Assembly (NCBI GenBank): GCA_030528345.1
Contig: JAUMZB010000019.1
Span: 29,313-37,498, forward strand
DNA: 8,186 nt
From: Eikenella sp.
GTDB lineage: Bacteria; Pseudomonadota; Gammaproteobacteria; Burkholderiales; Neisseriaceae
Direction of reading: 5' to 3'
Below are positions 2,984 to 3,224 of the stretch, one piece after another. A program made the translations under genes and the position numbers. Position 1 is the first letter of the stretch. Every line of letters begins with the position of its first letter. The notes beneath the pieces are model-generated. The model was not told the DNA's origin and made no database searches. It saw nothing but the letters and a program-made list of their open reading frames with translations.

Positions 2984-3011
2984 TTCACAAATAAACAGTA
3001 TCTTGTAAAAT
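2984..3011 (+). promoter_or_regulatory. Sigma70-like promoter TTCACA-N16-TAAAAT pointing away from the recombinase toward rne
   Basis: The -35 TTCACA (2984-2989) matches 5 of 6 positions. The spacer is 16 nt and the -10 is TAAAAT (3006-3011). It sits in the AT-richest stretch of the window, and no credible ORF lies downstream. Confidence 0.4.
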
Positions 3012-3017
3012 TTTCGC

Positions 3018-3224
3018 AAAATTACCTTTGACGGATGCACACAGTATCTTTGCAAAACCCTCAGATGCGGATGCAGTTCAAGGCGCAGCAGCGCAGCGAA
3101 CGTGAACGCCGGGAATCTCCGTGGGACAGACATATCATACAGATAGGCAAGTGAGCGGGCAGTACCCATAGGGCATAAACGCACAACGCAGAAATGCGCA
3201 GCAGATGGGGGGTTTTGCAAAGGT
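3018..3224 (+). ncRNA. Candidate structured non-coding RNA (bridge/seek-RNA-like) downstream of the recombinase; hypothesis only
   Basis: Three things support it: the promoter at 2984-3011, the absence of a credible ORF, and a long-range helix pairing 3046-3062 with 3208-3224 (15 Watson-Crick plus 2 G-U pairs). I could not confirm internal helices by eye. Confidence 0.25.
3048..3222. repeat. Perfect 13-bp inverted repeat CTTTGCAAAACCC (3048-3060) / GGGTTTTGCAAAG (3210-3222) enclosing 149 bp
   Basis: Read directly; the two arms are exact reverse complements. The left arm overlaps the right copy of the 11-bp repeat that brackets the recombinase gene. Confidence 0.9.

What the first reader, a model, noticed from the sequence alone, without database searches (positions are those of the whole stretch)
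2984..3224. Promoter plus inverted-repeat-closed unit of about 175 nt immediately downstream of the recombinase gene
A good sigma70-like promoter (TTCACA-N16-TAAAAT) fires rightward into DNA with no credible ORF. About 30 nt downstream, a perfect 13-bp inverted repeat (3048-3060 / 3210-3222) encloses 149 nt, and it extends to 17 bp if two G-U pairs are allowed. My rough estimate is that a 13-bp inverted repeat arises by chance in about 350 bp on the order of once per thousand trials. The size and position (3' of the recombinase, as in the IS1111 subgroup) fit a guide RNA. A MITE-like element with 13-bp terminal repeats is the alternative. Transcription from this promoter would also converge on the rne terminator, so antisense or interference effects on the rne 3' end are conceivable.
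Basis: partly seen in the sequence, partly recalled or inferred. Interest (0 to 1): 0.7.

Follow-up and report, generated by a model that had tools for sequence, protein, structure and literature searches.

The report
Prophage end abutting a host MITE
The inverted-repeat unit is not a guide RNA: it is an ordinary host miniature transposon (MITE) whose end repeat a filamentous prophage inserted into, and the guide ("bridge") RNA that matches this repeat lies on the other side of the recombinase gene.

Summary
TTCACA-N16-TAAAAT lies at 2984-3011. A perfect 13-bp inverted repeat lies at 3048-3060 / 3210-3222 (chance about 0.001). The guide-RNA interpretation is not supported.

- **Prophage end.** Orthologous prophages share an invariant CACAGTATCT ending at 3049 and then diverge. 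The Nf/MDA-like filamentous prophage therefore ends at 3047, with a shared CT core at 3048-3049.
- **The unit is host DNA.** The unit 3048-3229 is a MITE. At least 40 dispersed copies (26 in Neisseria shayeganii 871, up to 93% identical) were found, none near a recombinase gene. A full-length IS5-family element carries the same terminal repeats. Intact copies begin CTGAGAC-CTTTGCAAAAC; in the window, phage DNA replaces CTGAGAC.
- **The guide RNA is upstream.** A homologue of the IS621 bridge RNA lies at 1775-1938, just 5' of the recombinase gene. A covariance model built without this lineage scores it 71 bits (E = 3e-17).
- **The guides fit.** Its target loop carries CTGAGAC and TTGCAAAG, which spell the MITE repeat. 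Its donor loop carries ACAGTATC, which is the phage end. Guides co-vary with targets and donors across more than ten lineages.
- **The promoter-like site.** It is not enriched over shuffles and is not conserved in the closest relative.

The parts
1775..1938 (+). Candidate bridge RNA, homologous to the IS621 bridge RNA, immediately 5' of the recombinase start codon. A conserved 5' hairpin starts at 1770. The transcript ends are not mapped.
   Evidence: A covariance model built from 13 relatives (including E. coli IS621, excluding the window, L001 and L002) gives one hit at 1775-1941: 71.3 bits, E = 3e-17. The region aligns collinearly with IS621. RNAfold gives -63.4 kcal/mol, z = -5.09, with 0 of 200 shuffles as stable.
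1797..1855 (+). Target-binding loop. Closing stem GCCGCCGaCTTC (1797-1808) pairs with GAAGCGGCGGC (1845-1855). Left target guide CTGAGAC is at 1812-1818. Inner hairpin GGGTTGACCC is at 1822-1831. Right target guide TTGCAAAG is at 1834-1841.
   Evidence: Coordinates are. 11 of the 13 closing-stem pairs show compensatory changes across 10 lineages. TTGCAAAG is the reverse complement of CTTTGCAA (3048-3055). CTGAGAC equals the outer part of the MITE terminal repeat. Cognate guide-target pairing exceeds permuted pairings in all but 3 of 100000 permutations.
1880..1930 (+). Donor-binding loop. Left donor guide ACAGTATC is at 1880-1887. Hairpin is at 1894-1915. The right donor guide region ends in TAAG at 1927-1930.
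   Evidence: ACAGTATC equals the phage right end plus the first core base (3041-3048). Left donor guide and donor co-vary in 11 lineages, with 0 of 100000 permutations reaching the observed sum. TAAG versus CAAG tracks a left end starting CT-TA versus CT-TG in relatives.
1939..2916 (+). IS110-family DEDD recombinase (325 aa), IS621/ISCro4 type. It serves as the integrase of the filamentous prophage.
   Evidence: Pfam PF01548 and PF02371. NCBIfam NF033542 'IS110 family RNA-guided transposase', 192.9 bits against a cut-off of 140. Full-length matches in the PDB to ISCro4 9t56 (1.6e-45) and IS621 8wt6 (3.6e-43).
2917..3047 (+). Non-coding right end of the prophage. It ends in the left donor half-site CACAGTAT (3040-3047).
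   Evidence: Conserved blocks are shared with orthologous phages up to CACAGTATCT and nothing beyond. In L008 the same sequence joins the phage left end (CACAGTAT-CT-TATATGATG), giving a circular or tandem junction.
2984..3011 (+). It lies inside the phage right end and faces outward. Its spacer holds a second ACAGTATCT at 2995-3003.
   Evidence: 10 of 12 consensus matches, but 2 sites found against 1.5 expected. In L002 it reads TCCACG ... CAAACT, while the 39 nt that follow up to the junction are identical.
3028..3033 (+). TTGACG, a -35-like hexamer 16 nt (3034-3049, core CT included) before the start of the phage left end. In the circular form it would face the left end's TATATATT and make a junction promoter. 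This is inferred.
   Evidence: A TTGnnn hexamer sits at the same distance in all lineages examined and in IS621 (TTGCAG). Circle-junction promoters are described for this IS family in PMC11187229.
3048..3049 (+). Core dinucleotide CT shared by donor and target. This is the crossover point, i.e. the right prophage/host junction.
   Evidence: Every right junction reads ...TAT-CT-(host) and every left junction reads (host)-CT-T(A/G)TAT.... IS621 has the same arrangement. Nf1 is reported to target a CT motif in dRS3 (PMC7058167).
3048..3229 (.). Host MITE derived from an IS5-family element. Its left terminal repeat was cut back by the phage insertion, and the 13-bp inverted repeat is what remains of a repeat of about 20 bp.
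   Evidence: Full-length copies at 88-93% identity at 9 or more places in N. shayeganii 871, and 40 copies of at least 140 nt in the loci fetched. Intact copies begin (g)cCTGAGAC-CTTTGCAAAACC. No recombinase gene lies nearby. A full-length IS with the same terminal repeats is in N. weixii L069, carrying DUF772 plus DDE_Tnp_1 and the NCBIfam IS5 model.
3212..3229 (-). Intact, unoccupied copy of the target site CTGAGAC-CT-TTGCAAAAC, in the right terminal repeat of the MITE.
   Evidence: It matches the left target guide at 7 of 7 positions and the right target guide at 8 contiguous positions. The same 18-mer recurs throughout several Neisseriaceae genomes.
3267..3301 (-). Intrinsic terminator of rne (context only): hairpin CCGAAACTG...CAGTTTCGG followed by a T-run, read on the minus strand.
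   Evidence: Read directly; arm coordinates.

Best explanation
The interval 2984-3224 spans the right attachment junction of an Nf/MDA-like filamentous prophage.

- **Left of 3048: phage DNA.** This is the 131-nt non-coding right end that follows the IS110-family recombinase gene.
- **From 3048 on: host DNA.** It is a roughly 180-bp MITE derived from an IS5-family insertion sequence, sitting just beyond the rne terminator.
- **How the phage got there.** The phage integrated by bridge-RNA-guided recombination, as shown experimentally for IS621. An RNA encoded at about 1775-1938, immediately upstream of the recombinase gene, has two loops.
  - The target loop carries CTGAGAC and TTGCAAAG. These pair with the two strands of the MITE's terminal repeat, CTGAGAC-CT-TTGCAA.
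  - The donor loop carries ACAGTATC and ...TAAG. These pair with the joined ends of the circular phage, ...ACAGTAT-CT-TA....
- **What the inverted repeat is.** Strand exchange at the shared CT placed the phage inside the MITE's left terminal repeat. The 13-bp left arm is the right half of the occupied target. The right arm is part of the MITE's intact other terminal repeat, which is a second, unoccupied target on the opposite strand.

**Shown here:** the junction position, the repeat family, homology of 1775-1938 to the IS621 bridge RNA, and guide/target/donor complementarity with covariation.

**Inferred:** that the RNA is made, that it binds the recombinase, and that it directed this insertion. 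The promoter-like site at 2984-3011 is probably incidental.
For: **Junction**
- DNA downstream of orthologous recombinase genes is alignable only up to the invariant CACAGTATCT, then diverges into different host DNA or, in L008, into the phage's own left end.

**Host repeat**
- The window's 3048-3240 matches dispersed copies full-length at up to 93% identity.
- There are 40 copies of at least 140 nt in the loci fetched, and none of those loci holds a recombinase gene.
- Intact copies carry CTGAGAC where the window has phage DNA.
- N. weixii has a diverged copy at the same place downstream of rne with that terminal repeat intact.
- The parent IS5-family element is seen in L069.
- L002 and L009, which carry relatives of this phage, are inserted in other copies of the same terminal repeat.

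**Bridge RNA**
- A covariance model built without this lineage hits only 1775-1941 (71.3 bits, E = 3e-17). Nothing in 2917-3317 scores better than E of about 4.
- The region aligns collinearly with IS621.
- Fold z = -5.09.
- 11 of 13 closing-stem pairs are compensatory.
- Right target guide versus target, and left donor guide versus donor, co-vary across 10-11 lineages. Permutations reached the observed sums 3 of 100000 and 0 of 100000 times.

**Recombinase type**
-.

**Mechanism precedent**
- PMC11208160.
Against: - There are no expression data, and no sigma-70-like promoter was found on the + strand upstream of the RNA.
- The prophage's left junction is not in the window. The left half of the target and the right donor half are therefore inferred from the MITE consensus and from relatives.
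- The window's left target guide matches 7 nt but does not extend over the CT core, unlike IS621.
- In the closest lineage with a known left end (L005), the right donor guide matches only 4 nt. This is the same as in IS621.
- Lineages in the covariation tests are related to one another, and guide windows were anchored by hand. The permutation counts are therefore indicative, not formal probabilities.
- The scan for MITE copies used the predicted target as its query, so the outer 18 nt of the copies retrieved are biased. The interior homology and the second terminal repeat of each copy are not.
Confidence: 0.85

Rival explanations
1. One reading: the inverted-repeat-closed 175-nt unit is an IS1111-style guide RNA (seekRNA or bridge RNA) encoded 3' of the recombinase and transcribed from the promoter at 2984-3011.
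For: IS1111-group elements do encode their guide RNA downstream of the gene (PMC11187229 and PMC11208160). The unit's size is in the right range. A consensus promoter match points into it.
Against: The unit lies beyond the element's end. It is absent from orthologous phages that use other targets (L003, L008, L140, L145). It exists in many copies without a recombinase gene. Its fold z-score is -0.31 and it shows no covariation. The covariance model finds nothing there. The recombinase is IS621-like, with a clear upstream bridge RNA.
Confidence: 0.02
2. The unit is a MITE, but the phage arrived there by another route, such as homologous recombination after transformation or XerCD-type integration. 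On this view the upstream RNA-like region is not the targeting device.
For: [quoted passage not shown] No functional data exist for this lineage.
Against: The junction is at exactly the CT flanked by sequences complementary to both target guides. Independent insertions of related phages in other copies and orientations of the same terminal repeat have the same junction (L002, L009, L152). Guides change together with targets in other lineages.
Confidence: 0.05
3. Not exclusive of the main explanation: the promoter at 2984-3011 is functional. In the prophage state it reads out across the junction and the MITE, converging on rne and giving an antisense or interference effect. In the circular form it reads into the phage's early genes.
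For: 10 of 12 consensus matches with a 16-nt spacer. On the + strand the rne terminator hairpin is not followed by a T-run, so read-through would be possible.
Against: The site is not enriched over shuffles. It is the least conserved stretch of the right end in the 92%-identical relative. The conserved promoter element in this region is instead the -35-like TTGACG at 3028-3033.
Confidence: 0.12
4. Not exclusive of the main explanation: the MITE has a host function at this locus, for example as a hairpin that stabilises the transcript or adds termination downstream of rne, as proposed for Correia elements in Neisseria (recalled from general knowledge).
For: The family's ends can pair over about 45 nt. 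A copy sits at the same place downstream of rne in N. weixii.
Against: It lies beyond the rne terminator. No compensatory changes are seen. The phage insertion has removed part of one arm.
Confidence: 0.08

Closest known systems
IS621 / ISCro4 bridge recombinase with bridge RNA (IS110 group; Durrant et al. 2024, PMC11208160; PDB 8wt6, 9t56)
   Same: The recombinase aligns over its full length (E about 1e-43 to 1e-45). The RNA sits immediately 5' of the gene and aligns collinearly. The order is the same: 5' hairpin, target loop, donor loop. The donor half-site is the same (ACAGTAT-CT-T.TAT). The core is CT. A -35 hexamer in the right end faces a -10 in the left end.
   Different: The mobile unit is an 8-kb filamentous phage, not a 1.3-kb IS. 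About 7 kb of phage genes separate the left end from the RNA and recombinase module, so a junction promoter cannot drive the RNA directly. The target is a MITE terminal repeat rather than an E. coli REP. The window's left target guide does not cover the core.
Neisseria filamentous prophages Nf1-Nf4 / MDA phage, which integrate at dRS3 repeats through their IS110-family ('Piv-like') transposase (Kawai 2005 and Meyer 2016, as cited in PMC7058167)
   Same: Same gene set and order (DUF2523, Zot, transposase last; TspB and Rep in relatives). Integration is into a high-copy host repeat at a CT. The left end begins TATAT(G/A)..., matching the Nf1 primer sequence quoted.
   Different: The target repeat here is the terminal repeat of an IS5-type MITE, not dRS3. 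The recombinase is only 38% identical to the gonococcal one. I did not examine a meningococcal Nf1 prophage.
IS110-family insertion sequences that target the terminal repeats of other mobile elements: IS4321/IS5075 of the IS1111 group (Tn21-family transposons; Partridge & Hall 2003) and IS1383 (IS1384). Both are in the reference list of PMC11208160.
   Same: An element with a DEDD recombinase inserts at a fixed position inside the terminal inverted repeat of another transposable element.
   Different: Those are insertion sequences. IS4321 and IS5075 belong to the IS1111 group, whose guide lies 3' of the gene. Here a phage carries an IS621-type module with the guide 5' of the gene.
Neisseria small intergenic repeats (Correia elements; NIME units flanked by dRS3). 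Recalled from general knowledge, not tested.
   Same: Short, non-coding, bounded by inverted repeats, dispersed in intergenic DNA, often next to DNA uptake sequences.
   Different: No sequence similarity to these was tested. This family shares its terminal repeats with an IS5-family element.

Membership tests
   The element ends at 3047, with the core at 3048-3049. The unit begins there and is host DNA.
   The unit is absent downstream of orthologues in L003, L008, L140 and L145. There are 40 copies with no recombinase gene in the same loci.
   z = -0.31. 1 of 41 pairs is compensatory and the covariation term is +0.99.
   The best solved relatives are the IS110-group enzymes IS621 and ISCro4. 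At 325 aa it fits the Piv/IS621 subgroup described in PMC11187229. No phylogeny was built.
IS110-group bridge RNA (for 1775-1938) | Lies in non-coding DNA directly 5' of an IS110-group recombinase gene | tested here: met
IS110-group bridge RNA (for 1775-1938) | Homologous in sequence and structure to an experimentally defined bridge RNA | tested here: met
   It aligns with IS621. A covariance model that includes IS621 and excludes this lineage gives 71.3 bits, E = 3e-17. There is no Rfam match.
IS110-group bridge RNA (for 1775-1938) | Target loop whose two sides match the left target (same sense) and the right target (antisense) around the core | tested here: met
   The right guide matches 8 nt of the observed junction. 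The left guide matches 7 nt of the MITE terminal-repeat consensus and of the intact copy at 3212-3229. The window's own left junction is not available.
IS110-group bridge RNA (for 1775-1938) | Donor loop matching the element's joined ends | tested here: inconclusive
   The left donor guide matches 8 nt of the right end. The right donor guide cannot be checked because the left end is outside the window. In relatives it matches 4-8 nt.
IS110-group bridge RNA (for 1775-1938) | Transcribed, bound by the recombinase and required for recombination | not testable with these tools
   No expression or biochemical data are available.
MITE derived from an IS5-family element (for 3048-3229) | Short, with no room for a transposase gene | tested here: met
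   The window copy is about 182 nt; family members range from about 150 to 190 nt.
MITE derived from an IS5-family element (for 3048-3229) | Terminal inverted repeats | tested here: met
   Both arms of intact copies share CTGAGACCTTTGCAAAACC.
MITE derived from an IS5-family element (for 3048-3229) | Many dispersed copies in a genome | tested here: met
   26 copies in the N. shayeganii 871 loci fetched.
MITE derived from an IS5-family element (for 3048-3229) | Terminal repeats shared with an autonomous element that encodes a transposase | tested here: met
   L069 2558-3812 carries DUF772 plus DDE_Tnp_1 and best matches the NCBIfam IS5 models. The reading frame is split.
MITE derived from an IS5-family element (for 3048-3229) | Target-site duplication flanking the copies | tested here: inconclusive
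   No consistent duplication is visible in the alignment.
Sigma-70 promoter (2984-3011) | Consensus hexamers at the proper spacing, more frequent than background and conserved | tested here: inconclusive
   10 of 12 matches, but 2 found against 1.5 expected, and not conserved in L002.

The most novel reading that the evidence does not exclude
Filamentous phages of the Neisseriaceae have adopted an IS621-type bridge recombinase and its bridge RNA as their integrase module. They retune the RNA's target loop to whatever short repeat is most abundant in the host. Here that is the terminal repeat of an IS5-type MITE. In relatives it is the host's own dialect of the DNA uptake sequence (N. dentiae type, N. 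sicca, K. negevensis, N. shayeganii). In meningococci it is presumably dRS3. This would explain the long-known repeat-targeted integration of Nf/MDA phages. It would also be a natural bridge system that carries about 8 kb of cargo between the left end and the guide.
Probability: 0.6. Interest if true: 0.6.

Novelty: new member of a known kind. Interest (0 to 1): 0.42.

Why it matters
The flagged unit itself is ordinary: a MITE next to a prophage end. Following it up gives two useful results.

First, it corrects an annotation trap. In IS110-family loci, an inverted repeat next to the recombinase gene can be the target rather than the guide.

Second, it gives a concrete, testable mechanism for how Nf/MDA-type filamentous phages choose their integration sites. 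One such phage is associated with invasive meningococcal disease (PMC7058167). The proposed mechanism is a bridge RNA upstream of the transposase whose loops spell both the host repeat and the phage ends.

I found no paper in the searchable library that connects bridge RNAs with filamentous phages. The idea is nevertheless a natural extension of Durrant et al. 2024, and NCBI already names the protein family 'RNA-guided transposase'.

Tried and rejected
- **Rfam, whole window, E up to 10:** only noise.
- **BLAST of the 401-nt intergenic region against phage records:** no match.
- **The search for related loci with the recombinase in genome contigs:** pattern hits only, no relatives. The source genome is apparently not among the species representatives.
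- **Viral-contig scan with the conserved donor-loop 18-mer:** 13 hits, all unrelated chance matches in coding DNA.
- **A guide hidden in the right end (2917-3047):** the right end contains TTTTCGCAAAA and CCTTTG, which resemble the target. These are interrupted matches and are absent from L009, which uses the same target. Rejected.
- **The unit as a structured RNA family:** rejected.
- **An orthologous empty site in N. shayeganii:** its rne locus was not among the loci fetched. Only N. weixii was available.
- **N. gonorrhoeae locus L149:** rearranged and not usable for the comparison.
- **Inoviruses L158 and L161:** their donor guides did not fit my simple search pattern, and I left their junctions unresolved.
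Full report
**Setting**

The window holds the 3' part of a filamentous prophage.
- A DUF2523 gene lies at 138-422, Zot at 419-1528, and an IS110-family DEDD recombinase at 1939-2916.
- A 401-nt intergenic region follows.
- Host genes come next: rne on the minus strand at 3318-6218 and an rluC-like gene at 6724-7755.

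Relatives of the recombinase sit at the end of Nf/MDA-type prophages of Neisseria, Kingella and Eikenella, with Rep, coat protein, TspB, DUF2523 and Zot upstream. They also occur in complete circular inovirus genomes from human saliva.

**1. The observation**

- TTCACA (2984-2989), a 16-nt spacer and TAAAAT (3006-3011) are there.
- The perfect 13-bp inverted repeat lies at 3048-3060 / 3210-3222.
- It extends to 17 pairs with two G-U pairs.
- A perfect inverted repeat this long arises in about 1 of 1000 Markov simulations of the region, so it is not chance.
- The promoter match is good (10 of 12) but not enriched: 2 sites against 1.5 expected.

**2. Where the phage ends**

I aligned the DNA downstream of six orthologous recombinase genes (49-92% protein identity). 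All share conserved blocks that end in an invariant CACAGTATCT (window 3040-3049). After that they differ completely.
- L003 and L004 run into a DUF4198 gene.
- L008 runs into the phage's own left end and Rep gene (CACAGTAT-CT-TATATGATGCC). This is the circular or tandem junction.
- Left junctions in L005, L145, L150, L152 and L155 read (host)-CT-TATATATT.

The element therefore recombines at a CT core: the donor is ...ACAGTAT-CT-TATAT... and the target is LT-CT-RT. This agrees with the published statement that Nf1 targets a CT in dRS3 (PMC7058167). E. coli IS621 has the same layout...ATCAGGC-CT-TGTATTATCC at its left junction and ...ACAGTAT-CT-ACGTG at its right junction.

In the window the phage ends at 3047 and the core is 3048-3049.

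A small corroboration, which rests on my recollection that Logan assemblies use 31-mers: the independent short-read contig L001 carries the same sequence and stops at window 3077. That is 30 nt past 3047, as expected if everything from 3048 on is multi-copy.

**3. What the unit is**

The post-junction flanks of L002 and L009 are homologous to the reverse complement of the right end of the window's unit. This suggested a repeat with terminal inverted repeats.

I scanned one genome per species for the predicted target, CTRAGACCTTTGCAAAAC. Many were in N. shayeganii 871, Neisseria sp. HSC-16F19, N. dentiae, N. weixii and Kingella. They often came as +/- pairs 130-190 nt apart.
- BLAST of window 3048-3240 against these loci gave full-length copies at 88-93% identity at nine or more places in N. 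shayeganii, and weaker copies elsewhere.
- In all there were 40 copies of at least 140 nt in 29 loci, 26 of them in N. shayeganii.
- None of these loci encodes a relative of the recombinase.

In the multiple alignment, intact copies start (g)cCTGAGAC-CTTTGCAAAACC and end GGTTTTGCAAAG-GTCTCAG(g)c. The window copy has ...cacagtat in place of CTGAGAC. So the family's terminal repeat is about 20 bp at its core (imperfectly about 45 nt). The 13-bp repeat is what the phage insertion left.

N. weixii has a diverged copy of the same element at the same place downstream of rne. Its distal terminal repeat is intact (GTTTTGCACAG-GTCTCGG), where the window reads GTTTTGCAAAG-ATACTGTG. This serves as an orthologous unoccupied site.

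N. weixii also has a 1.25-kb element with the same terminal repeats and a split IS5-family transposase gene, carrying DUF772 plus DDE_Tnp_1 and matching the NCBIfam IS5 models. The unit is therefore a MITE of an IS5-family element.

As an RNA it is unremarkable. Its fold has z = -0.31, and only 1 of 41 predicted pairs in the family shows a compensatory change.

**4. Where the guide really is**

The recombinase is IS621-like.
- It aligns full-length to ISCro4 (9t56, 1.6e-45) and IS621 (8wt6, 3.6e-43).
- It matches the NCBIfam model 'IS110 family RNA-guided transposase'.
- At 325 aa it fits the Piv/IS621 subgroup (PMC11187229).
- In that group the bridge RNA lies 5' of the gene (PMC11208160).

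The 170 nt before the start codon fold far better than shuffles: -63.4 kcal/mol, z = -5.09. The fold is the IS621 architecture:
- a 5' hairpin (1770-1793);
- a long stem (1797-1808 / 1845-1855) that closes an internal loop containing a small hairpin (1822-1831);
- a second loop containing a hairpin (1894-1915).

Across ten lineages the closing stem keeps pairing through compensatory changes at 11 of 13 pairs.

The region aligns collinearly with the E. coli IS621 bridge RNA. I recalled that sequence from memory, confirmed it at 100% identity in E. coli genomes, and read it next to an annotated IS621 transposase gene. Shared motifs are GGACAGTATCA, AATCyGTAT...AAGG, and AGAT after the right target guide.

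A covariance model built from 13 relatives, including IS621 and excluding the window, L001 and L002, finds exactly one significant hit in the window: 1775-1941 on the + strand, 71.3 bits, E = 3e-17. Nothing in 2917-3317 scores better than E of about 4.

**5. Guides, target and donor**

The rules are those of PMC11208160. [quoted passage not shown] The 3' side is antisense to the core plus the right half-site.

In the window:

| Guide | Sequence and position | What it matches |
|---|---|---|
| Left target guide | CTGAGAC (1812-1818) | The outer part of the MITE terminal repeat |
| Right target guide | TTGCAAAG (1834-1841) | Reverse complement of CT-TTGCAA (3048-3055) |
| Left donor guide | ACAGTATC (1880-1887) | The phage right end plus the core C (3041-3048) |
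| Right donor guide region | ends in TAAG (1927-1930) | Reverse complement of CT-TA |

The intact terminal repeat at 3212-3229, read on the minus strand, is CTGAGAC-CT-TTGCAAAAC. It matches both target guides.

Other lineages change guide and site together:

| Lineage | Right target guide and target | Left target guide and target | Donor guides and donor |
|---|---|---|---|
| L003/L005 | GAAAAAG with CT-TTTTT | ...GCAGCC with AGC-CT | not listed |
| N. sicca L150 | GATAAAAAG with CT-TTTTAT | CAAACGACC with CAGACGAC-C | not listed |
| N. shayeganii L140 | GTTTCAG with CT-GAAAC | not available | left GATATTATC with GATATTAT-C |
| Neisseria sp. L152 | not listed | not listed | left AGTGTTATC |
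| N. dentiae type L145 | not listed | not listed | left AGTAGTATC |
| K. negevensis L155 | not listed | not listed | left ACGCTATC |
| Eikenella L154 | not listed | not listed | left AAGCTATCTT |
| Inovirus L159 | not listed | not listed | left ATACTATCTT; right ATACAAG with CT-TGTAT |
| L008 | not available | not available | right CATATAAG with CT-TATATG |

Summed anchored matches of cognate pairs exceed permuted pairings. For the right target guide and target, 3 of 100000 permutations reached the observed sum. For the left donor guide and donor, 0 of 100000 did. These counts are indicative only, because the lineages are related and the anchors were set by hand.

**6. Mechanism**

The most likely course of events is as follows.
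1. The circular replicative form presents the donor ...ACAGTAT-CT-TATAT....
2. The bridge RNA, bound to the recombinase, pairs its donor loop with that site.
3. Its target loop pairs with a MITE terminal repeat.
4. Strands are exchanged at CT, as shown for IS621 (PMC11208160).

The result is the junction at 3047/3048. The steps from RNA expression onward are inferred by homology and were not tested.

A -35-like TTGACG (3028-3033) lies 16 nt (3034-3049, core CT included) before the start of the phage left end in the window. A TTGnnn hexamer sits at the same distance in every lineage and in IS621. The left end supplies TATATATT. The circular form would therefore carry a junction promoter that integration splits (precedent in PMC11187229).

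It is the least conserved part of the right end in the 92%-identical relative, and I regard it as probably incidental.

**7. Comparison and novelty**

The unit is a MITE and the junction is a prophage attachment site; both are known kinds of thing.

The RNA at 1775-1938 meets the sequence, structure and complementarity criteria for an IS110-group bridge RNA. Expression, protein binding and the right donor half could not be tested.

It differs from IS621 in three ways: it is carried by an 8-kb phage, about 7 kb of phage genes separate the left end from the guide, and it targets another transposon's terminal repeat. For that last point, IS4321/IS5075 and IS1383 offer precedents among insertion sequences (references).

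I found no paper in the searchable library that links bridge RNAs to filamentous phages or to dRS3 targeting. The library is incomplete, so this is not proof of novelty.

**Verdict**

Interest is moderate: the flagged feature is ordinary, but it leads to a clear, testable account of repeat-targeted integration by Nf-type phages.

Noticed in passing
L145 about 1580-1612; L150 about 2297-2329; L155 about 2490-2520 and 11206; L140 8966: Related phages appear to aim their target loops at the host's DNA uptake sequence. N. dentiae type inserts at TTCAGACGGC-CT and N. sicca at TTCAGACGAC-CT, which are the ends of inverted uptake-sequence pairs. K. negevensis inserts inside AAGCAGC-CT-GAA, and N. shayeganii at ...-CT-GAAAC. 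Assigning these to uptake-sequence dialects is from memory (Frye et al. 2013) and was not checked.
   Followed up: partly
loci L023-L139 (non-Neisseriaceae): The same 18-mer, CTGAGACCTTTGCAAAAC, begins dispersed repeats in Desulfobacterales, Chloroflexota, Bacteroidales, Nitrosomonas and other MAGs. It is often followed by gcccccttttgcccaatttctgcgtcaggctcaaatttta. This suggests a very widespread IS5-type terminal repeat and its MITEs.
   Followed up: partly
L149 (N. gonorrhoeae) 10964-11130 and upstream of 10001: The gonococcal copy is rearranged. The DNA upstream of the recombinase gene keeps only GCATATAAGG of the donor loop. The right junction GTAGTATCT is followed by an inverted copy of a donor loop (...CTTTGATACTACTCAATTTC). 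This looks like a recombinase-mediated inversion.
   Followed up: no
It is absent from L002. It could act as a pseudo-donor site.
   Followed up: no
window 3228-3240, 6704-6717, 7426-7439: TTTTCAGGTAGCCT occurs twice in host DNA, and a one-base-longer variant (AGGCTATCCTGAA) directly abuts the MITE's right end. Many MITE copies in N. shayeganii are likewise followed by AGGCTACCTGAA. This is probably the host's DNA uptake sequence.
   Followed up: partly
window 2705-2726 and 2944-2965: A 22-nt inverted repeat (82% complementary) links the 3' part of the recombinase coding region to the right end (pair I10). Its significance is unknown.
   Followed up: no
window 1-123: An exact 24-nt direct repeat (3-26 and 100-123) overlaps a 25-nt imperfect inverted repeat (65-89 / 94-118), just upstream of the DUF2523 gene.
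   Followed up: no
window about 1696-1710: ATTGCTTGCAAAAACT, about 70 nt upstream of the bridge-RNA hairpin, resembles the right half of the target (CTTTGCAAAAC). It is conserved in L002. No promoter was detected for the bridge RNA.
   Followed up: no
L009 3620-3790: The bridge RNA of this lineage carries an insertion of about 100 nt between the target loop and the donor loop.
   Followed up: no
L155 2518 and 2729: The K. negevensis prophage has two copies of its left end (CT-TATATATTACCCC...) 211 nt apart. This may be a partial tandem duplication or the remnant of an earlier insertion.
   Followed up: no
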